Positions 5,451 to 18,919 of a stretch of 64,000 nucleotides of DNA are shown here, piece by piece. Location: assembly GCA_963713605.1 (NCBI GenBank), contig CAVQMO010000001.1, forward strand, positions 800,001 to 864,000. The letters are read 5' to 3'. The stretch is from an uncultured Nitrososphaerales archaeon (GTDB lineage Archaea; Thermoproteota; Nitrososphaeria; Nitrososphaerales; Nitrososphaeraceae). The notes beneath the pieces are model-generated. The model was not told where the DNA came from and ran no database searches. It worked only from the letters and a program-made list of their open reading frames with translations. Numbering within the stretch: position 1 is the stretch's first letter; the number at the start of each line of letters is the position of its first letter. A program made the translations under genes and the position numbers.

Positions 5451-5762
5451 TTATCCTATATCTATCTGGACGGTATTTCTATGTGTACGAATGGACAGGG
5501 GCTTTCTCCCCTCAAATAGCATCATATAGACAGTCTTTTGAAGCCTTACAGCGGATTCTTTGTCCGACATCATTATGCTATGCGAACTATCATCATCTAA
5601 AACTACTATCAGTTCCCTCTCGCCGACGGTAGATACATGTTTGAGGTTATGCTGTTCTCTATTTGGGGATAATATCCACATCAGTTTCTCAGCCTCGTAC
5701 TCGTCCTCACAAACGATATCTTGTGTGTTCCTGGTAGAGCTATTCAAAGGGATTTTCCTCAT
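5451..5762 (-). CDS. Hypothetical protein (~103 aa) downstream of trpS
   Basis: ORF from the ATG at 5762 (MRKIPL...) overlaps the trpS stop; protein-like composition. Confidence 0.55.
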   Translation of the reverse strand: MRKIPLNSSTRNTQDIVCEDEYEAEKLMWILSPNREQHNLKHVSTVGERELIVVLDDDSSHSIMMSDKESAVRLQKTVYMMLFEGRKPLSIRTHRNTVQIDIG

Positions 5763-6922
5763 AAAGAAACGAATCGATTTGATTCCTTGCTTGGTCTCTT
5801 CGCCTAGTAAACTCTGACATAAACAACTTTGTCTGAGTTGTAAGATCAGATTTACATTCCCCACATAATAGATTACCTGTTCTACATTTCAGAGATCGTT
5901 CAAAGGAATCCTTTCCGTCGTCAAAGAAATGGCTTAAGTACCAAAATACTGGACATGCATCTGGATCTCCTCCCAGTATCCTTTGGAGTCTAACCGACGG
6001 TTGCCCTCCAGTGTACGCGCCTGAAATCTTGCTTTCAATTGTTTCTGGGTCGTCGGTTGTAAAAATAGCACCGGTTGGGTTTGAAGATGACATCTTGCCA
6101 TTCATTTCAAGACTTGGTACAAACTTGCTGTGAATTTGTGCCGGTTTATGGTATCCCATCTTCTCTGCGATGTCTCTTGTAATCCTCCAGTAAGGGTCTT
6201 GATCAATTGGAGCAGGGATTAACACACGCGTGGGTTTCTTTTCGATCAACGACGGCAAAAAACAAGGGGCAGCCTGAATAGCGGGAAACCCTATCATCCC
6301 AATATTAGACGAAGGTTTATACCCAAATACGGCTTTTGCAGTAGAAAAGGTTATCTTTTTTGCGATCTCTAGATAGAGAGGATATAAAGTTTGTATGTTT
6401 CTTGTATTCACTATAATTCGAGTCAGCTTGGGGTCGAATCCAGTTGCTATGACATCGAGGATATTGTCGTACGCGTACTTCTCTACTTCTTGTAAGCTGA
6501 AGGTGTTGACTATAGAGGAATTTTTCGTCATCGGTAATCTGAAATAACAGCCTGGATCGAAATGTGTCTTGTAGATACTTCGTGAAAAACCAAGGCATTA
6601 AGTGACCCATATGAACATGGCCAGAAGGCCCTCTGCCGGTATAGAGGTAAAAATTTTCACCATTTCTATATGCGTCTAATACTACGTCAAAATCCCTGTG
6701 GGAAAAAAAGAAGCCACGTGCTAAGAGAGGATGAATGCTTCCGGAAAACATCTGCAATTTCTCGATAATTTCAGGAGTGATTAACCGGGTGCCGAAATCT
6801 TGGACAATCTTATTGTAGTCAACAACTCCATCGACTTGCCAAGGCGTAACGCTATACCCTCCTTCCAAATTACCAGCTTCATTACCTCCTGATTCTTCGA
6901 TTTCCTCGTCTCGTTCACCCAT
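5740..6922 (-). CDS. trpS: Tryptophanyl-tRNA synthetase (apparent frameshift ~6495)
   Basis: VTPW, LYTGRGPS, HMGH (HIGH) in ORF 6317..6922; IDQDPY and KMSSS in ORF 5740..6531. Confidence 0.95.
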
Positions 6923-6997: not shown

Positions 6998-8510
6998 ATG
7001 ACTTATAAAGTAACTGCATTACATCCTATCGAGAAAAAGATTCTCCAACTATTGGTTAAGAATGGCTCCCTCACAGTTGATGCCTTGTCAGAAAAAGTGC
7101 GGCTTGACCGTCGACCAGGTGAGGAGAGGAGTGGAACGGCTAAAATACAAGAAACTCATTCTGATCACTCAGGATTTATCTGTCCTCTATGAATTGGATG
7201 ACCGGGGCAAATCTGCTTTAGTCAAAGGATTACCTGAGAGGAGGCTGGTTAGTGCCATTCAGTTAGAACCCGATAAAGGGATTGCAATGCTCGCAAAAAC
7301 ACAGGTTTTTGAGAAGGATGAGCTGAGTGCGGCTATCCGGATTGCGAGAGATCAAAACCATTGGTTGCTTCAAGTTTCTGGCGATAAAAACAAAGGTAAT
7401 CTGAGAATTAGCCAGTCAGTATCAGAAACTTCGTCAGAAGAGCAAGTTATAGAGCGATTCAGAAGTGTCCAGCGTGTCTCTGAAAATGGATTAAATGACT
7501 TTGAAAAGAAGGGTGTTGAGCTTCTCTTAAGGAGACCAAATTATCTAAAAAAGATTCAGCAACAAACTGTTACTGCCTCGTTAACAGAGATTGGGAGGTC
7601 GGTGGCTGCAGAGATAACTGTACCCACATCCCCTCAGACAGAATTCGTTAGTTCAAAGGCTAGAGCAGGAGGTAGACCAGAAAGTTTTGCATTAGACCTT
7701 CAAGCTGCAGTTAAAGCAGCGGTGCCAGGGAAAACGCATCCATTAACGGATTTAATTGCAGAAATTAGAGATATTTTCGTGAGCATGGGCTTCGCAGAGA
7801 TAGAAGGTGACATCATCCAGACTTCCTTTTGGAACTTTGATGCATTGTTTACACTTCAGGATCATCCCGCTAGAGAAATGCATGATACATACTATCTCTC
7901 TGGGCACAGGAGGGTAGAGGAAATAGCAAGCAAGGAGCAGATCGCAAATGTTTCTAAAATACATAACAAGAATTCAATTAATGCTTGGGATATTCGGGAG
8001 TCTAACCGTCTAGTTCTACGTACTCATACGACTCCAATCACACTGAAGTATCTGGCAGACAACCAACCTAACGAGGCAAAGCTCTTCTCTGTGGGGACTG
8101 TGTTTCGAAATGAAAAAGTAACAAAAGGTCACCTCTCCGAATTTTTTCAAATTGAAGGCATAGTTACCAAACCGGACGCCTCCGTCAGGGATCTAATGGG
8201 ATTACAAACGGAATTCTACCACAAATTAGGAATACAAAAAGTAAAGTTTTGGCCTACATTTTTTCCGTACACTGAACCATCGTTACAATCGATGGTATAT
8301 ATCGAAAGTGTCAACAAATGGTTGGAACTCTTTGGGATGGGAATATTTAGGGATGAGGTTACCCTTCCCATGAAAATCAAGAATCCAGTTCTGGCTTGGG
8401 GAGGCGGGCTCGAGCGGTTGGCAATGGTACGATTTGGCATAGATGATATAAGAACACTTTACAGCAACAAGATCGAGTGGTTAAGGAGTGTTCCCAAATG
8501 CCAGTTGTAG
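6998..8510 (+). CDS. pheS: Phenylalanyl-tRNA synthetase alpha subunit (apparent frameshift ~7100)
   Basis: FWNFDALF.QDHPAREMHDT, LRTHTT, FRNE, FPYTEPS, AWGGGLERLAM; N-terminal part in ORF 6998. Confidence 0.95.
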
Positions 8511-10694: not shown

Positions 10695-10868
10695 TCACCT
10701 AAAATCATCTATCACATTTTTTATAATAGACTTTGCTTCAGAAGAAATATCATAATCGGCTAGCACTTTGGTTGGTTCTGTAAGCAAGAGTCTTCTGAAA
10801 TTTGGTTCGCTAGCTGCCCTAAGAAGTATTTCGCCCACAATTTTAACATCCCCGTTTCTGATTCCCAA
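10695..10868 (-). CDS. 57-aa NHLP-clan (nitrile-hydratase-leader-like / Os1348-like) small protein; candidate RiPP precursor or leader
   Basis: My translation from TTG: MGIRNGDVKIVGEILLRAASEPNFRRLLLTEPTKVLADYDISSEAKSIIKNVIDDFR*. It has the pattern I..RA..(D/E)P.FR..LL.(D/E)P..L..Y and is divergent from ycaO. Confidence 0.68.
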   Translation of the reverse strand: MGIRNGDVKIVGEILLRAASEPNFRRLLLTEPTKVLADYDISSEAKSIIKNVIDDFR

Positions 10869-10966
10869 TCAGAATCATGCTATATATGGAATCTTAATTT
10901 GTGCCTTTCTACCTATAGTACACCACAAGAACATTATTATTCTGAAAATTTGATTCCGATTATGTA

Positions 10967-12273
10967 TTGCGACTAGTAGACCGCTTTAAATGGTCCGATA
11001 ATGGCACAAGTAGAATTCAACCTCCAGAAAAGACTCTTCTCACAGTGGAGGGGATCACAGGAAAGATTGGGGTGACTCGAATTGGCAACATTACTCATCT
11101 GGACAGACTTGGTATTCCTAATTATTCAGTTGTTCTGCCCGGTACCGAGGATTACATTTGGGTCTATAGCGGAAAGGGTTTCACCATGAAGCAAGCCAGG
11201 ACAAGCGGCCTTATGGAAGCTATAGAACGATACTCTTCTTTGCCTGGCAGCTATGAGCGTCAGTTAATCAGAGGTTCATATTTTGAACTATCAAAAAGAT
11301 ATAATATACTTAGTTCAGACGATGTTTGCGAACCACTCTCTGTTCCATATAGGGATGATATGATAATGGATTACATTGAAGGCTTAGACCTGGTTTCATA
11401 TGAACAAATTCTGGTACCTGCCGCCTTGGCTTTGTTTAGGTACACTCAGCACGGTAAGGCTGTCAATCCGTTCTCTTTCTCTCACACGAACGGACTCGCA
11501 TCAGGAAATGTCTTGGAGGAGGCAATCTGTCATGCCTTATGCGAAGTTATTGAGCGAGATGCATCAAGTCTAGCCGAATTACGTTCGAGTGCCTTTCCAT
11601 TTCATCTATTAAAGATCCTGACAAACAAGTTTAAGGAGAGCGGGTACGCAATTAATGAAATTGCTTCCGATGCTATGGTTGATGAACCAAACTTGTTTCC
11701 TATGCTCGATTTAGAAGGTAATATCTTCCATCCGGCAAGAAATTTAGTGGATAGATTTAAGGCCGCAAATATTTCCTTGATAATCAAGGAGATTACAAGT
11801 GACGTGGGAATATCAACATTCAACGCTGCAAGCGTTGAATGGCTGACTCAAAATTACGGTTATCTTGCTGAAGGAACGGGCACACACCCAGACGCTAGGA
11901 TTGCGCTTGTCAGGGCAATTACCGAACTTGCTCAGACTCGAGCGGCCAACATCCAAGGTGCTCGAGACGATCTTCGCAAAATTAATTACGTGGGTGAAAA
12001 TTCAGAGGACAAGAGGTCGTGGCAATTTTTGAATTCAGATCGAAAGGTTCGTCTCTCAGGGGTCAGAGCTACTACAATCAAAACATACTAGATGATATAA
12101 GGTTGATCCTCAACCAGCTTAGAGCCGTGGGACTAAAGAGAGCTATTGTGGTGGATCTAACGGTACCGTGGATAGGAATTCCTGTCGTAAGGGCCATCGT
12201 ACCAGGTTTGGAAACATTCAAGTTCACAAAATCTGTAGTAGGTCAAAGGGCAAGGAATTATTTCAAGGCATGA
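10967..12273 (+). CDS. ycaO: YcaO-family protein, TfuA-associated thioamide-synthetase type (apparent frameshift ~12062)
   Basis: GVTRIGNITHLDRLGIP, SGKG..A.TSGLMEAIERYS, TNGLASGN.LEEAI.HAL.EVIERDA, RAITELAQTR..IQGARDD; C-terminal VVRAIVPGLE in the second frame. Confidence 0.92.
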
Positions 12274-12929
12274 AAAACATAATTGTTTTTGTCGGTCCTA
12301 GTTTAGATACAGAAAAGGCACGAAAGGTGTTGGAAGCGGACTATAGACCTCCAGCAAAGAAAGGAGACTTGATCAGATTGGTCATGTCGTTGGACGACAA
12401 AGAGACTGTGGTAGGGCTAATAGATGGATATTTTTTGCTTGATTATCCTCCCACGCCTATTGAAGTTTATCAACTGATAGTTAGACACAATACTGTAGTG
12501 ATAGGATCATCAAGTATAGGGGCCCTAAGAGCAGTTGAGCTAGAGAAATTCGGAATGATCGGTGTGGGAAAGATATTCCAATTATTCAAGACAGGGAGAC
12601 TAGATGCGGACGACGAGGTAGCTGTGACTTTTTCTCAGGACTTGTACCACCTTCAGTCTGAAGCGATGATAGATATTCGATATAACCTATACCTATCGCT
12701 GAAGAAAGGGTTTATCGATAAGGAAACCAAATACGCTATCACTAAGGTAGCCAAGGATATCTATTTTCCATTTCGAACATACCAAAACATTGTTGAAGAA
12801 ACCATTAGGAGATATCCCATTCTGGACGATAAAGTGAGACGCTTCGAAGCCTACATTTTTAAAAATAGGAAGAGTCTAAAAGAGATGGATGCTTTGAAAC
12901 TTATTGAGTATATCAGAGATATGTTTTAG
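12270..12929 (+). CDS. tfuA: TfuA-like protein
   Basis: VFVGPSL, YRPPAKKGD, GLIDGYF, GSSSIGALRAVEL, DDEVAV; ATGA start/stop overlap with ycaO at 12270-12273. Confidence 0.92.
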   Translation: MKNIIVFVGPSLDTEKARKVLEADYRPPAKKGDLIRLVMSLDDKETVVGLIDGYFLLDYPPTPIEVYQLIVRHNTVVIGSSSIGALRAVELEKFGMIGVGKIFQLFKTGRLDADDEVAVTFSQDLYHLQSEAMIDIRYNLYLSLKKGFIDKETKYAITKVAKDIYFPFRTYQNIVEETIRRYPILDDKVRRFEAYIFKNRKSLKEMDALKLIEYIRDMF

Positions 12930-13074
12930 AAATGTTCAGATTAGAATTCTAATGACAGGACAAAAGGAAAACTTTCAAAGCCCACACGGAATGGTTTAAT
13001 TTTGTATGAATACATACTGCGGATTAGTCAGAAAGAAAGTACGTCTATATTCGTAGTCTAAATTATTGGTAAAT

Positions 13075-14263
13075 ATGCAGTCCATTGAACCTATAGCTCT
13101 TTCTATATTAGGTTTTATCATGTTCTCAGTCCTGCTCACTTGGGTACGCTTGTTAATGTATTGCAAAAGGTCATTGAAATATTCGCCGAAACTCGAAGAG
13201 GTCAGAACGCTCGACCCTAATCTTACACCTCGAGTCAGCATAATTGTACCTGCGTTGAATGAAGAAAAATACATAGGCAGGTGCTTACAAAGCCTTCTAG
13301 CTCAGGACTATCATAATCTTGAGATAATATCCATAGATGATGGTTCAATAGACAGTACTCTTCTGACGATGAAGTCAGTAGCATCAACAGACCAAAGACT
13401 TCGCGTAGTTGAAGCTGGGCAGAGGCCGGGCGGCTGGGTAGGGAAAAATTGGGCCTGCTTTATAGGCTATAACAATTCGACAGGAGACATTCTTATCTTT
13501 ACTGATGCGGATACTGTTCACTCCAAAAAGACTGTTACCTTAGCAGTAAACCATATGTTGCAAGAGAACCTCTCCGCGATTACGGCTATTCCAAAACTGT
13601 TGTCTGATGATTTCCTAACTAGCGTCACATTGCCCCTCCTCTCGGTTTTTTTGCAGACCAGGTTTTCTCCTCTGAAAGTAAACGATCCTGCAAACAAGTT
13701 GGGGTATTTTTTTGGAAGTTTCTTTGCTATTATTCGAGGCCACTATGAATCTATTGGGACTCACAGGGAAGTTCATACAGAAATAATTGAAGATGGAGCA
13801 ATTGGGTCGCTTGTAAAAAAAAAGAGGGATAAGGATGAAAATGTTTAGAGGAGAAAACTGCGTTGATGCATTGTGGGCGAGGGACAGACAAGGATTATGG
13901 AATGGGCTGTTACGACTCTTGATTCCTATGCACAGAGAACAGGGTAAGAAGACAGTTCCAATGGTGATTGCAATTGCCTTCCTAATGTTATTTCCATTCA
14001 TGGCTTTACCAGGAGGAATTTATTTTGCAAACCTGTTAGATTCAAGCTTTCTAGGCATTTTTCTTGCCGGCGCTGCACTGATTACTTTGTGCATTATGAT
14101 GATGACAACTATCCTTATCCTTTCTCAATCGATTAAGACTAGCAGGAAGTTGGCTCTCGGGTCACCGATAGGAGCAACCGTCATAACATTGTCCTTTGTT
14201 ATTTCCCTGCTCAGAGCCCACAAGCCTCGGTCCTTCGCCTGGAAAGGAAGAACGTACGTGTAG
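13075..14263 (+). CDS. Membrane-bound family 2 glycosyltransferase (apparent frameshift in the A9 run ~13815-13823)
   Basis: VSIIVPALNEE, IDDGSID, GWVGKNWAC, FTDAD, EIIED; N-terminal and C-terminal transmembrane segments. Confidence 0.85.
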
Positions 14264-14318
14264 AACTGAATTAAGAATAGTGTTTATTAGTCAAGGCGTA
14301 ACAGATAACGATGCATTG

Positions 14319-15506
14319 ATGCGATGTGATAACGGTCTGGAGCAAGTATCCAAAGTAATGGATGAAATAAAGCATTCTACTTATAATCTTGATAGTGAAC
14401 AGGCTCTATCGTTATTTCGTAGTGCTAGGTTAGAACAACTAATTGAGTGTTCTTCATATCTGCGCAATAAATTCAAGCCTTCAATCTTGACTTATTCTAG
14501 AAAGGTCTTTGTAAATCTTGTAAATCTGTGTCGCGATACATGTACTTATTGTACCTACAAAAAGGAGCCTGGGGACACAACAATTTCAATGCTAGATCCC
14601 GACAAAGTCTTGGCTATAGTAGAGTTTGCAAAGCGACTGAGATGTACCGAGGCCTTAATAGTCACAGGGGAGAGACCAGAAAATCGATACCCCGAAGTAC
14701 GAAGTTGGCTTCGAAAGATGGGATTCTCTACACTGTCTGAGTACGTAGGTGAAATATGTGAAATGATTATCAAGAAAACGGGATTATTGCCTCACACGAA
14801 TGCTGGCAGCCTCTCCAAAAAAGAGTTACTCACTCTACGGGAAAGCAATGCTAGTATGGGGTTAATGTTGGAATCCTCAAGTGTTAGATTATCTGGTCGA
14901 GGGATGCCTCACGAAAGGGCACCAAGCAAACATCCTAGAGTAAGAATAAAATCGCTGACTTCATGTGGTGAGTTAAATATCCCAACTACAACGGGACTAC
15001 TCATAGGTATAGGGGAGACACCTGAGGAAATCGTTGAATCACTATTTCTTATTAAATCGCTACACGAGTCTTTCGGGCATGTACAGGAAGTAATTATGCA
15101 GAACTTTTCACCGAAGGATGGAACGTCAATGTCTGATTATCCGGCCCCATCAAAGGAATATTTCATGAGAGCAGTAGCGGTAGCCCGGATTTTGATGCCT
15201 AATATGAACATTCAGGTGCCGCCAAACCTCAACGAATCCCTGGAAGACTATATTAGCGTGGGTATTAATGACTGGGGTGGAATATCGCCTGTTACCATCG
15301 ATTACGTCAATCCAGAACACCCTTGGCCCCCCATAGAACATGTAAATCGAGTGACTTCCCGGAAAGGATTTCTATTAAGAGCCCGACTGCCGGTATATCC
15401 AGAGTTTTTGAAAAATGGTCGGTCTTATATTTCTCACCGTGTTCGTCCTTCAATTGAAGCACTCTCAGACGACGAAGGTTTGGTAAAGGAGTCATACTTG
15501 TTTTGA
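14319..15506 (+). CDS. cofG: FO synthase subunit CofG (F420 biosynthesis, radical SAM)
   Basis: TYSRKVF, CRDTCTYC, LPHTNAG, SMGLMLE, IQVPPNL, GINDWGGISPVTIDYVNPE. Confidence 0.93.
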   Translation: MRCDNGLEQVSKVMDEIKHSTYNLDSEQALSLFRSARLEQLIECSSYLRNKFKPSILTYSRKVFVNLVNLCRDTCTYCTYKKEPGDTTISMLDPDKVLAIVEFAKRLRCTEALIVTGERPENRYPEVRSWLRKMGFSTLSEYVGEICEMIIKKTGLLPHTNAGSLSKKELLTLRESNASMGLMLESSSVRLSGRGMPHERAPSKHPRVRIKSLTSCGELNIPTTTGLLIGIGETPEEIVESLFLIKSLHESFGHVQEVIMQNFSPKDGTSMSDYPAPSKEYFMRAVAVARILMPNMNIQVPPNLNESLEDYISVGINDWGGISPVTIDYVNPEHPWPPIEHVNRVTSRKGFLLRARLPVYPEFLKNGRSYISHRVRPSIEALSDDEGLVKESYLF

Positions 15507-16765
15507 ATCTAGAAAGCATTCTCAAGACGGTCGACCCTCTTGTTTCAGAAGCTTTGAATTTAGCAATTGATGAAAAGGAAATAACTGTCAAGCAGGCAGT
15601 AGAATTGTTCGATACGAGTGGGATCGAAATGAACTTATTGACTTCGGTTGGAGATGAGCTGCGAAGAAGAGCATGTGGAAACGTTGTCACGTATGTTATC
15701 AACAGAAACGTCAATTTCACTAATGTGTGTATAAAGAGGTGTGGCTTTTGCGCATTTAGCCGTGATTTCAGACAGGAGGAAGGTTACTTCTTGCCTATCG
15801 AGGAAGTAGTTCGACGTGCAGTAGAAGCCCATCGGTTGGGTGCCACTGAGATCTGCATACAGGCAGGTCTACCCCCAAATATGGACGGTTCCCTTTATCC
15901 TGATATCTGTAAAGCGATTAAGCACGAAATACCGGAGATCCACATTCATGGGTTCTCCCCTGAAGAAGTGTTGTACGGAGCCAAGATGAGCAACAATAGC
16001 ATTAGGGATTTCTTATCTTGGCTCAAAGAGTCCGGTGTAGGAAGTCTACCAGGAACTTCCGCAGAGATACTAGATCAAGAGGTTAGAGACCTAATATCTC
16101 CAGGTCGAATATCTGTTAATGAATGGATAGATGTTATAAAGACAGCTCATAGTTTAGGTATTCCAACTACCTCAACTATAATGTACGGACATGTAGAGTC
16201 GAATTTCCACAAGGCTAACCACATCGACATTTTACGTAAGATCCAGAAGGAAACTGGTGGCATAACTGAGTTCGTCCCTCTCAGTTTCGTATACCAAGAA
16301 GCCCCTATGCACAGCCGGAGTACATTAGAAAATATGCGTGAGGCAGGAGCGGGGGCAATGGATATCGTAAAAATGTACTCCGTTTCTAGGTTGATGCTCC
16401 ATAACTATGTGAAGAATATACAGGTTTCGTGGGTAAAAGAAGGCTCCAAGATGTCTCAATTTCTTTTATGTGCTGGGGCAAACGATTTTGGTGGTACACT
16501 TATCAATGAAAGTATATCTACAGCCGCTGGTTCAATTCACGGTCAGCTCATGAGACCCAATGAAATAAGAGCCCAAATCAAAGGTTTGGGACGGATCCCT
16601 GCTCAACGCAATACATTATACGAGATCTTACGAATAAATTCAGGAGCCGACGAGGAATGCCAGACCGAACTTGATCATGTAAACCCCAATAATTTTGGCT
16701 CCTATGGAGAGCTTATCAAGCTTGACAAGTACAAGTATCAACATTCTTTACGGCATCATAATTAG
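15503..16765 (+). CDS. cofH: FO synthase subunit CofH (radical SAM)
   Basis: VTYVINRNVNFTNVCIKRCGFCAF, SLPGTSAEIL, TSTIMYGHVE, NIQVSWVK, GANDFGGT; overlaps the cofG stop. Confidence 0.93.
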   Translation: MNLESILKTVDPLVSEALNLAIDEKEITVKQAVELFDTSGIEMNLLTSVGDELRRRACGNVVTYVINRNVNFTNVCIKRCGFCAFSRDFRQEEGYFLPIEEVVRRAVEAHRLGATEICIQAGLPPNMDGSLYPDICKAIKHEIPEIHIHGFSPEEVLYGAKMSNNSIRDFLSWLKESGVGSLPGTSAEILDQEVRDLISPGRISVNEWIDVIKTAHSLGIPTTSTIMYGHVESNFHKANHIDILRKIQKETGGITEFVPLSFVYQEAPMHSRSTLENMREAGAGAMDIVKMYSVSRLMLHNYVKNIQVSWVKEGSKMSQFLLCAGANDFGGTLINESISTAAGSIHGQLMRPNEIRAQIKGLGRIPAQRNTLYEILRINSGADEECQTELDHVNPNNFGSYGELIKLDKYKYQHSLRHHN

Positions 16766-17131: not shown

Positions 17132-18919
17132 GTGATACAAAAACCTTTAGGAAAGCAGATGGAGACGCAATTCAACCTGGCCCGCCTTAAATGGCAAACA
17201 TTGCAACATAATGGAATTGCATTTCCTCCAGAATTCAAACCGAGGGGCATCACTATTAGCATTCTTGGAGAGCAATATCTGTTGAATGCTGCCCAAGAAG
17301 AATTGATCTATGCCTGGTCCAAGAAGAAGGATACTCATTACGTCCATGATAAAGTGTTCGAATCAAATTTCATGATTGATCTCAGAAGTGTACTTCCTCC
17401 TAAGTTCGGATCCGTCAATAAAATCTCCGAATTAGATCTGTCGAATGCCTACCGCCTGGTAGAAGAAGAAAACAGATTGAAGGAAGAAGAAAAGGAGCGG
17501 ATTAGAAATCTACCCCGAGATGAAAGAAGGCTTATATCTCAATCCAAGAAAAATGAGCGAGAACGACTTCGATCGATTTATGGTTTGGCGACTGTTGATG
17601 GTGTGACAGTTGAAATAGCAAATTGGCTGGTGGAACCTCCGGGCCTATTCATGGGAAGAGGACAACATCCACTGCGAGGCCGATGGAAACCCAGGGTACA
17701 GTCGCAAGATGTAATTCTGAACATGGGTGAAAGCGCAGAAGTACCGGAAGGAAACTGGAAGGCAGTTGTTAATGATCATACCTCCACCTGGCTCGCGACA
17801 TGGATGGAAAAATTGACTGGCAAAAGAAAGTATATGTGGCTTCATGATTCATCCACCCTTCGTCAGAACAGTGATAAGGAAAAATACGATAGGGCTAATA
17901 TACTCGGGAAACATATCGACAAAGTTCACGAAAGGATAGTGACCAAGATGATTAATTCTAAAGATCTGAGCCAGAAGAAGTTATCCACTGTCTGCTATTT
18001 AATTAGTAAGCTCGCGATGAGAGTGGGAGATGAAAAAGATCCGGACGAGGCAGACACAGTAGGCGCGTCGACGTTACGGGTGGAGCATATTCGATTTCCA
18101 ATTCATCAAGGAGTAAAGAATATAGAGTTCAATTTTCTCGGAAAAGATAGCGTCCCATGGCAAAAAAGTTTGGAAATTAATTCGCAAGACACAGAAGCAC
18201 TATATATGAACATGGAATTATTTATGAAGGACAAGAAACTTACGGAGCAGATTTTCGATGGTATTACCTCTGCGAAGGTAAATTCATTTCTTAGAAAGAT
18301 TGATAAAAACAAAGTTCCCGGTTTGACTGCTAAGGTTTTCCGAACTTTCATAGCGACCCAAATTGTTAAGGAGGCTTTAGCTCATCCTCCAATCAAAGTA
18401 AATGAGGAGTCTTCAGAAATGGAAAAAGTATACGTCGCCAAAAAGGCGAATCTTGTAGCGGCTATTACCTGTAATCATAAAAAGGGAATTGATGCAAACA
18501 ATCCTACTAGCAAGCAAAGCCTTGAAAGGTTTCAAAAATCAGTGGAAAAGAAGGAAGAAGTTATTAGAAAAATTGAGAACGATATCGCCTCTCGTAAATG
18601 GAAGACAGATCTACAAAAGAAGAGATTGATGGATAGATTGGAAAAGGTCCAAATAACGTTGCGTCTGCAAAAGGAAACTCGTGATTATAACCTCGGGACT
18701 TCACTTCGAAACTATATAGACCCTCGTGTCTTGAAATCATGGATGAACTACGTAGATCTTGATGGGAAACGGCTCTTTACAGCAACTTTGCAACGCAAGT
18801 TTAGATGGGTTGAGACATATTCTAATGCCGAGCTGCGACAATTTCTTCCTGAAGTCGAGAAAACTGGACGCCAAAAATCTGAGGCGGTAATTCAAGAGGA
18901 AAGTCTGGCTAAAAGTTAA
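17132..18919 (+). CDS. top1: DNA topoisomerase IB (eukaryote-like)
   Basis: KWQTLQHNG, VEPPGLFMGRGQHP, MRVGDEKD, FLGKDS, LTAKVFRT, CNH, NYIDPR catalytic Tyr. Confidence 0.95.
   Translation: MIQKPLGKQMETQFNLARLKWQTLQHNGIAFPPEFKPRGITISILGEQYLLNAAQEELIYAWSKKKDTHYVHDKVFESNFMIDLRSVLPPKFGSVNKISELDLSNAYRLVEEENRLKEEEKERIRNLPRDERRLISQSKKNERERLRSIYGLATVDGVTVEIANWLVEPPGLFMGRGQHPLRGRWKPRVQSQDVILNMGESAEVPEGNWKAVVNDHTSTWLATWMEKLTGKRKYMWLHDSSTLRQNSDKEKYDRANILGKHIDKVHERIVTKMINSKDLSQKKLSTVCYLISKLAMRVGDEKDPDEADTVGASTLRVEHIRFPIHQGVKNIEFNFLGKDSVPWQKSLEINSQDTEALYMNMELFMKDKKLTEQIFDGITSAKVNSFLRKIDKNKVPGLTAKVFRTFIATQIVKEALAHPPIKVNEESSEMEKVYVAKKANLVAAITCNHKKGIDANNPTSKQSLERFQKSVEKKEEVIRKIENDIASRKWKTDLQKKRLMDRLEKVQITLRLQKETRDYNLGTSLRNYIDPRVLKSWMNYVDLDGKRLFTATLQRKFRWVETYSNAELRQFLPEVEKTGRQKSEAVIQEESLAKS

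What the first reader, a model, noticed from the sequence alone, without database searches (positions are those of the whole stretch)
10695..12929. Hidden NHLP-clan small protein head-to-head with a coupled ycaO-tfuA pair: candidate archaeal thioamide RiPP/protein-modification system
Seen: a 57-codon minus-strand ORF (10868 to 10695, below the ORF-track cutoff) reads MGIRNGDVKIVGEILLRAASEPNFRRLLLTEPTKVLADYDISSEAKSIIKNVIDDFR. It starts 98 bp from the ycaO start, and ycaO and tfuA overlap by ATGA. Known: I..RA..DP.FR..LL.DP..L is the signature of nitrile-hydratase-like leader peptides (NHLP clan), which are RiPP precursors or leaders. YcaO plus TfuA install backbone thioamides on methanogen McrA and on thioviridamide-type RiPPs. 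Inference: an ammonia oxidiser has no MCR, so the pair needs another substrate, and this peptide is the obvious substrate or adaptor. It has no double-glycine site or Cys/Ser/Gly-rich core, so it may be a leader-only factor acting in trans rather than a classical precursor.
Basis: partly seen in the sequence, partly recalled or inferred. Interest (0 to 1): 0.85.

Follow-up and report, generated by a model that had tools for sequence, protein, structure and literature searches.

The report
Core-less leader protein docks on YcaO
Ammonia-oxidising archaea keep a tiny helical protein beside an enzyme pair that swaps oxygen for sulfur in protein backbones; it is predicted to clamp onto a loop that only their version of the enzyme has, so it is probably a partner subunit, and the real target protein is still unknown.

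Summary
The 57-codon ORF (10868-10695, TTG start) is a real gene: dN/dS 0.18, four helices, with NHLP motif 1 but no Gly-Gly site and no core. YcaO, TfuA and this gene occur in the same 26 of 201 class genomes; 19 of the 26 keep it divergent from ycaO. It was not found in 28 other TfuA genomes of the phylum; 4 of 4 tested carry McrA. These YcaOs carry a 34-residue insertion missing from MCR-type YcaOs. A complex prediction with a relative's orthologues docks the protein on it: score 0.76, best control 0.00 (mark reached by 116 of 157 solved, 2 of 215 mismatched pairs). 22 of 25 contacts lie in the insertion, none at catalytic residues. Best reading (0.55): an accessory subunit of a thioamide enzyme with an unknown protein target; the protein as substrate is a rival (0.2). 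The scan noted this module before on other genomes (five notes). Ten paper searches found no account of the partner.

The parts
10695..10868 (-). 57-aa core-less NHLP/LigA-like helical protein (TTG start); predicted YcaO-binding accessory subunit
10869..10966 (.). 98-base divergent intergenic region with two conserved AT-rich blocks, likely back-to-back promoters (inference)
   Evidence: gap 87-106 bases in 31 of 33 linked loci
10967..12091 (+). ycaO, N-terminal frame (true YcaO sequence up to about 12064, then out of frame)
   Evidence: PF02624 E 1.8e-55; TIGR03266
11600..11701 (+). YcaO insertion (residues 212-245) missing from MCR-type YcaOs; predicted docking site of the small protein
12060..12065 (+). 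one-base frameshift in ycaO, probably an assembly error
12019..12273 (+). ORF holding the ycaO C-terminal 68 residues (from about 12065); stop overlaps the tfuA start (ATGA)
   Evidence: PF02624 E 3.1e-11
12270..12929 (+). tfuA, 219 aa
   Evidence: PF07812 E 2.5e-33; NF033432 207 of 235 bits; 6xp8 E 3.5e-43

Best explanation
A three-part protein-thioamidation module of three families of ammonia-oxidising archaea. TfuA releases sulfide from a thiocarboxylated ThiS-type carrier and YcaO uses ATP to activate a backbone amide and install the thioamide (known chemistry of the family; inferred for this copy). The 57-aa protein is a RiPP-leader-like helical bundle that has no core and serves as a dedicated accessory subunit: helices 1, 2 and 4 wrap around a lineage-specific insertion of YcaO (predicted, not measured). 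The composite surface probably stabilises or switches on YcaO, or recruits the folded target in place of the RRE that this YcaO lacks (inferred). The target is an unknown, conserved cellular protein, not McrA (inferred). Shown: gene reality, co-occurrence, linkage, insertion, lack of core. Predicted: binding and its site. Inferred: chemistry, role of binding, nature of the target.
For: (1) YcaO, TfuA and the small gene are in the same 26 of 201 class genomes: f1 16/16 plus G000, f9 6/6, f4 3/3, none in the other 175. The small gene is kept in the 7 genomes where it has moved away from ycaO. (2) It is the only neighbour shared across the three families in 41 wide loci; 37 of 39 relatives with the gene have it divergent from ycaO. 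(3) 28 TfuA genomes of other lineages show no hit; 4 of 4 tested have McrA and their YcaOs lack the insertion, as does solved 6pe3. (4) Complex prediction: 0.76 against a best control of 0.00; the mark was reached by 116 of 157 solved complexes and 2 of 215 mismatched pairs; runs agree in at least 91% of contacts; partner pLDDT at least 84; replacing YcaO gives 0.00. 22 of 25 YcaO contacts lie in the insertion, which the solved YcaOs aligned lack, so recall of a solved complex is unlikely. Invariant YcaO D239 lies against invariant P22, and its neighbour 240 against invariant R25. (5) No invariant catalytic-motif residue (E84, E87, R88, N175-N181, E193, E196, R197, E320, Q323, R325) and no TfuA residue is in the contact list. 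(6) All-helical fold to the last residue; 0 of 33 have Gly-Gly and 18 of 33 have no Gly. (7) Precedent: the 55-residue SonA binding domain alone binds SonM, and such domains cap dioxygenases in cis or trans (PMC8429565); NHLP helix 1 contacts a YcaO enzyme (PMC12455567); further protein substrates of YcaO are expected (PMC13063428).
Against: No experiment and no expression data for the small gene. The complex score is model confidence; the job used my own alignments, three chains and a relative's orthologues (G003), so the calibration counts hold only roughly, and the tool text says 7 of 44 blind neighbours passed. Contact residues are not significantly more conserved than the rest (small protein p=0.058; insertion p=0.99). 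Co-occurrence rests on three related families, that is about one gain and one loss, and the profile was built partly from those genomes. Linkage is lost in one large group: 43 of 80 YcaO loci had no small gene in the fetched flank. No target was found. In f4 and f9, two ABC-permease-like genes follow tfuA (8 of 8 loci; identity read from sequence, not scanned), which could point to peptide transport.
Confidence: 0.55

Rival explanations
1. The small protein is itself the substrate. It binds the insertion through its helical bundle, a terminus or an unwound helix reaches the active site and gets a thioamide, and the uncut modified mini-protein is the product.
For: It is the only conserved neighbour and is predicted to bind YcaO. 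In SonA a helix of the binding domain unwinds to feed the active site (PMC8429565). Thioamides are not limited to Gly (uL16 Met82; PMC13063428). Cyanobacterial TfuA-YcaO clusters carry Nif11-type precursors or NHLP transport genes (PMC8120280 supplement).
Against: There is no tail beyond the last helix; both ends vary between lineages; no conserved Gly; contacts avoid the catalytic motifs. The four invariant residues belong to the motif shared with NHase and NHLP leaders, not to a core.
Confidence: 0.2
2. It is a leader-mimic inhibitor or regulator that holds YcaO inactive, or tunes it, rather than a helper.
For: The SonA binding domain without core inhibits SonM, Ki 3.9 uM (PMC8429565). It is transcribed divergently and can sit elsewhere in the genome, so its level can be set apart from ycaO-tfuA. 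The insertion follows directly on the catalytic helix 183-207.
Against: It is kept wherever the enzymes are (26 of 26), and no cognate precursor exists to compete with (only one NF038399 hit in the genome).
Confidence: 0.1
3. The linkage is historical and the protein has another job, such as a homo-oligomer or the cap subunit of a different enzyme; the predicted interface is false.
For: Os1348 forms a homodimer (PMC7726476). The best fold match is the C-terminal region of gallate dioxygenase DesB. The gene is unlinked in 7 of 26 genomes. Many genes could share this three-family range.
Against: Divergent linkage persists across three families while all other neighbours change, even for a 33%-identical variant (L201). 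Complex score 0.76 against 0.00, on an insertion whose range matches the protein's.
Confidence: 0.08
4. The partnership is real but the chemistry is not protein thioamidation, for example a small-molecule or cofactor amide, an amidine, or a RiPP precursor encoded elsewhere.
For: Both enzymes fall under the equivalog cut-offs of the McrA system (289 of 365; 209 of 235 bits), and the lineage has its own invariant patches (G59-Y67, W292-G303). No McrA-like motif stands above background in the genome.
Against: TfuA is coupled to ycaO; the nearest solved relatives are the McrA-modifying YcaO and a TfuA; ThiS-family carriers ending in Gly-Gly and a ThiF-family enzyme are in the genome. True azole RiPP clusters in these archaea are patchy, 2 of 26 genomes.
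Confidence: 0.07

Closest known systems
McrA thioglycine YcaO-TfuA of methanogens (TIGR03266 / NF033432; solved 6pe3, 6peu, 6ci7, 6xp8)
   Same: Adjacent ycaO-tfuA, stand-alone YcaO without RRE, conserved catalytic motifs, best sequence and fold match, universal retention within its families. PMC5589413 places the YcaO of ammonia oxidisers in the methanogen clade.
   Different: No McrA, scores under both cut-offs, a 34-residue insertion, and a third small gene not found in MCR-type genomes.
NHLP (proteusin) precursors, TIGR03793, and the MprE7-MprC leader/YcaO pair
   Same: Motif 1 (RA..[DE]P.FR..LL..P) and an N-terminal helical bundle whose helix 1 contacts a YcaO enzyme (PMC12455567; helix 1 is in the interface).
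   Different: No motif 2, no Gly-Gly, no core, no conserved export system; the partner YcaO has no RRE and offers a new insertion instead.
Os1348/PosA family (NF038399; 6lk7)
   Same: Best family hit; NHLP-like fold without a double-glycine site.
   Different: PosA has a modified C-terminal core and HEXXH-type maturases (PMC12636437); this protein ends with the bundle and scores 21 of 40 bits.
Borosin binding domain of SonA and LigA-like caps of LigAB / DesB dioxygenases
   Same: Helical bundle of about 55 residues that wraps a protruding part of its enzyme, in cis or trans (PMC8429565). Fold matches: 3wku rmsd 1.1 over 42 columns; 1b4u, 7twm, 9cgw at Z 4.7-5.3.
   Different: Matches are weak (Foldseek E 0.35; Z tied with unrelated bundles). 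The partner is a YcaO, and there is no core as in SonA.
E. coli YcaO acting on ribosomal protein uL16
   Same: Housekeeping protein thioamidation; an extra domain may help to recognise a folded target (PMC13063428).
   Different: No TfuA there, the extra domain is fused, and it is a distant subfamily (NF040716 26 of 700 bits).

Membership tests
NHLP RiPP precursor (TIGR03793) | NHase-like motif 1 | tested here: met
   A18, P22, F24, R25 invariant in 40 rows; profile hits NHase alpha chains at E 2.5e-8 and NHLP 9cjx at E 5.6e-4; motif as defined in PMC2887384
NHLP RiPP precursor (TIGR03793) | score over the curated cut-off | tested here: not met
   14.1 of 50.9 bits; 27 of 54 members hit at E<=0.01, best E 4.7e-5
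NHLP RiPP precursor (TIGR03793) | motif 2 with Gly-Gly cleavage site | tested here: not met
   0 of 33 orthologues have GG
NHLP RiPP precursor (TIGR03793) | hypervariable Cys/Ser/Thr/Gly-rich core | tested here: not met
   57-62 aa, helical to the end; the 3 longer forms found are single sequences that look like read-through or upstream mis-starts (that search is weak)
NHLP RiPP precursor (TIGR03793) | clustering with a peptidase-ABC export system | tested here: inconclusive
   No transporter is conserved across families; two ABC-permease-like genes follow tfuA in 8 f4/f9 loci only, not scanned against a family library
Os1348 family (NF038399) | score over 40 bits | tested here: not met
   21.3 bits; 43 of 54 members hit at E<=0.01
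Os1348 family (NF038399) | same fold as 6lk7 | tested here: inconclusive
   Z 4.5, rmsd 3.1 over 54; Foldseek E 5.6
McrA thioamidation system (TIGR03266 / NF033432) | coupled ycaO and tfuA with intact catalytic motifs | tested here: met
   the role of the single residues is recalled, not from a call; the window's ycaO is frameshifted, relatives are intact
McrA thioamidation system (TIGR03266 / NF033432) | equivalog cut-offs | tested here: not met
   intact orthologue 289 of 365 bits, TfuA 209 of 235; MCR-type controls pass with 469, 527 and 270
McrA thioamidation system (TIGR03266 / NF033432) | McrA substrate in the genome | tested here: not met
   none in G000 (87% complete) or G044 (one contig, 99%)
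McrA thioamidation system (TIGR03266 / NF033432) | ThiS/ThiF sulfur relay available | tested here: met
   3 ThiS-family hits, two ORFs ending in GG, and a ThiF-family gene elsewhere in the genome; their link to TfuA is not shown
McrA thioamidation system (TIGR03266 / NF033432) | thioamide-forming activity | not testable with these tools
   needs reconstitution or proteomics
RRE-dependent YcaO (TOMM C/D) | RRE / leader-binding domain, fused or adjacent | tested here: not met
   no TIGR03882 or TIGR03603 hit on the intact YcaO, whereas the TOMM clusters L198 and L199 hit both
LigA / borosin-binding-domain-like cap | helical-bundle fold | tested here: inconclusive
   DesB region rmsd 1.1 over 42, prob 0.99, E 0.35; profile E 0.005; Z 4.7-5.3, tied with unrelated bundles

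The most novel reading that the evidence does not exclude
These archaea have turned a RiPP leader into a permanent, core-less subunit of YcaO. It docks on a newly gained insertion in place of an RRE and steers YcaO-TfuA to a conserved folded protein. That would be a third natural protein thioamide after McrA and uL16, kept in every sampled genome of three families of ammonia oxidisers and not found in the largest family of the order.
Probability: 0.35. Interest if true: 0.85.

Novelty: new variant of a known kind. Interest (0 to 1): 0.68.

Why it matters
Only two proteins with a backbone thioamide are characterised (McrA and uL16; PMC13063428). The YcaO of ammonia oxidisers has been known as an unexplained branch of the methanogen clade since PMC5589413. 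This work adds a third component with a specific, testable docking site. If it is an obligate subunit, it explains how to reconstitute the enzyme, gives a bait for finding the target in soil nitrifiers, and shows a leader peptide working in trans as an enzyme subunit, a design of use for engineering leader-free thioamidation.

Tried and rejected
Search for an McrA-like 11-mer in the six-frame genome: best 32 against self-scores of 63-67, 15 hits against 8-21 in three shuffles, so background. Nitrile hydratase alpha and further NHLP-clan genes in G000: none. RNA evidence: three metatranscriptome runs with small word shares gave short contigs on ycaO and tfuA but none on the small ORF; contigs at depth 2-4 show neither expression nor its absence. 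Conservation of contact versus non-contact residues: not significant. Fold search beyond DesB: Z 5.4 or less, uninformative. Protein atlas: first hit is the protein's own archaeal cluster; Os1348-like and Franean1_4349 clusters at 0.80-0.83 are leads only. Deep variants: P0055 gave one unrelated locus, P0060 gave a bacterial NHLP precursor and an unrelated locus, so their contexts stay unknown. Four weak phylum hits (E 5e-4 to 8e-4, in longer frames of TfuA-negative genomes; L082-L085) were not examined. A DNA-binding regulator was considered because of the divergent layout; no family or convincing fold match supports it. A classical RiPP precursor was rejected for lack of core and cleavage site. 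A true ycaO pseudogene was judged unlikely. Two papers on YcaO peptide binding and TfuA chemistry were not held, so those points are recalled. PMC9635834 had nothing on this pair.

Full report
Observation. The minus-strand ORF 10868-10695 reads as quoted, from a TTG start. It begins 98 bases from the ycaO TTG at 10967, and ycaO and tfuA overlap by ATGA at 12270-12273. Against three relatives the window is one base short at about 12060-12065. A 166-base contig of run X6, otherwise identical, has the extra base, and so does a more distant contig. trpS, pheS and a glycosyltransferase gene of the window are split as well. I take the break as an assembly error, on one clean contig at depth 4.4.

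The small gene is real. The protein search returned 37 homologues among 37 candidates, 31 of them 57 aa long; those with an organism name are Nitrososphaeraceae. Across 11 genus genomes dN/dS is 0.176, against 0.10 for tfuA and ycaO; the other five frames hold stops in 9 to 11 of 11. AlphaFold gives four helices, 2-20, 22-30, 32-36 and 43-56, mean pLDDT 89. Expression was not shown: RNA contigs touched only ycaO, tfuA and flanking genes, at low depth.

Family. Hits to NF038399, TIGR04351, TIGR03793 and PF14407 are all under the cut-offs, but 43 of 54 members hit NF038399 and 27 hit TIGR03793 at E<=0.01. The profile finds nitrile hydratase alpha chains, a solved NHLP and gallate dioxygenase. 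The invariant residues A18, P22, F24 and R25 are motif 1 of PMC2887384 (passages). Motif 2, Gly-Gly and the core are missing: 0 of 33 orthologues have GG and 18 have no Gly. More remote hits of the full-library search include proteins with the same bundle followed by tails. Fold matches point weakly to the DesB C-terminal region, LigA, borosin domains and Os1348. So it works like an enzyme-binding leader domain, but it is not a member of the precursor families.

Distribution. Of 60 relatives, 40 have tfuA. The small gene was found in 38 of these and in G017 by a local search. The 40th, G002, has a contig that ends inside ycaO. None of the 20 tfuA-negative genomes has a hit better than E 0.04. 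37 of the 39 have the gene divergent from ycaO within about 3 kb; the copy in G001 is itself split. These tallies include G013, an unpublished genome; no other claim rests on it. In a class sample of 201, TfuA, YcaO and the small gene mark the same 26 genomes: f1, f9 and f4 fully, 0 of 127 in f13 and 0 of 48 others. Nineteen are linked and seven unlinked (g14, g4, g57). Family names are not given for handles; that f13 is the mainly marine family is my inference. Among 80 named YcaO loci, 33 have the gene upstream and divergent, 43 do not within 570-4000 bases (33 of these are titled Nitrososphaera sp.), and 4 are too short. Over 41 wide loci no other neighbour is shared by all three families (both outputs were cut in part). 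Trees of YcaO and of the small protein recover most genus groups alike (Spearman 0.62 on pair identities, 33 genomes); shared descent explains this. Kin are not independent: the pattern amounts to about one gain and one loss. In a phylum sample of 301, 28 further genomes have TfuA and none has the small gene; 4 of 4 tested have McrA. G000 and G044 have none.

The enzyme. The nearest solved relative is the McrA-modifying YcaO of M. jannaschii. Yet an intact orthologue scores 289 of 365 bits on TIGR03266 and TfuA 209 of 235 on NF033432, while MCR-type controls pass. Catalytic motifs are invariant in 36 sequences (their roles are recalled). Residues 212-245 are gapped in all four MCR-type YcaOs and absent from the 6pe3 and 7u58 alignments; the model folds them as a helix (210-224) and a loop. 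No leader-binding domain is present. ThiS- and ThiF-family genes lie elsewhere in the genome.

Predicted complex. YcaO, TfuA and the small protein of G003 (88%, 93% and 79% identical to the window's) were folded together. Score 0.76, best of three controls 0.00; the mark was reached by 116 of 157 solved complexes and 2 of 215 mismatched pairs. These counts hold only roughly, as my own alignments and three chains were used. Runs agree in at least 91% of contacts, partner pLDDT is at least 84, and replacing YcaO abolishes the score. The YcaO side is residues 211-242 and 433-434; 22 of 25 lie in the insertion. No TfuA or catalytic-motif residue is listed, though unlisted residues are uncertain rather than excluded. 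The range of the insertion matches the range of the small gene in everything I sampled. Against this, contact residues are not significantly more conserved (p=0.058 and 0.99), and the score is not a measurement.

Mechanism. Most likely (0.55) the protein is an accessory subunit clamped on the insertion, stabilising or activating YcaO or helping it to grip a folded target, which then receives a TfuA-supplied sulfur. Precedents: SonA's 55-residue domain binds its enzyme alone, and related domains cap dioxygenases in trans (PMC8429565, passages); NHLP helix 1 contacts MprC (PMC12455567, parts 1-2 of 3); EcYcaO modifies folded uL16 (PMC13063428, passages and Discussion). Universal retention fits a cellular target, whereas azole RiPP clusters occur in 2 of the 26 genomes. 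Rivals: the protein is the substrate (0.2), an inhibitor (0.1), unrelated (0.08), or the chemistry differs (0.07). A scan for an McrA-like site found only background, so the target is open.

What is in print. PMC5589413 (one passage) notes YcaO of ammonia oxidisers in the methanogen clade. PMC8120280 (passages; supplement PDF part 3) lists eight Thaumarchaeota TfuA clusters; its Figure S11 key shows a hypothetical gene beside YcaO in Nitrosocosmicus with no precursor labelled. I could not see its figures or supplementary tables, and RiPPER may have listed this peptide there, as the key of Figure S15 includes Thaumarchaeota. PMC7726476 and PMC12636437 (passages) cover Os1348/PosA. Ten searches showed no paper on this partner or the insertion; the library lacks most subscription journals. 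Five earlier notes of this scan describe the same module on other genomes; they are not independent support.

Verdict. A real, conserved three-gene module; a new variant of YcaO-TfuA thioamidation with a core-less leader-like partner and a specific predicted docking site. Interest 0.68.

Noticed in passing
window 5740-6922, 6998-8510, 13066-14263: trpS, pheS and a GT2 glycosyltransferase gene are each split by a frameshift against relatives; the ThiF-family gene on C1 near 284,600 is split too. The assembly seems to carry many indel errors.
   Followed up: partly
L198 687-4319 (G017): A second YcaO: an 821-aa fused SagC/SagD-type cyclodehydratase beside a SagB dehydrogenase, an azole RiPP cluster in an ammonia oxidiser; no precursor seen on the 5.5-kb contig.
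   Followed up: partly
L199 1988-5662 (G217): SagB, SagC-like and SagD genes behind an 88-aa ORF with a Cys/Ser/Thr-rich tail, a candidate archaeal azole RiPP precursor.
   Followed up: partly
L061 3862-6315 and seven more f4/f9 loci: Two ABC-permease-like genes follow tfuA on the same strand in f4 and f9 but not in f1; identity read from sequence only.
   Followed up: no
L073 121-294, L074 73-246: G028 and G035 carry a second, unlinked copy of the small gene on short contigs; paralogue or strain mixture not decided.
   Followed up: no
L069 6248-6427, L071 6190-6363: In genus g5 the small protein has diverged strongly (27-32% to the window's), and its YcaO insertion lacks otherwise near-invariant H213 and R206; possible joint change.
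   Followed up: no
window 14196-16765: cofG and cofH (F420 biosynthesis) lie two genes downstream of tfuA; not conserved as neighbours beyond some f1 genera.
   Followed up: no
L075 7002-7670 (G027): tfuA is broken by stops and frame changes in this genome, while ycaO and the small gene are intact.
   Followed up: no
L202 3959-6723: Bacterial cluster with three NHLP-type precursors (leader, Gly-Gly, tail) and a short peptide beside a 389-aa ORF.
   Followed up: no
window 17132-18919: Type IB topoisomerase gene, known from this archaeal group (recalled).
   Followed up: no
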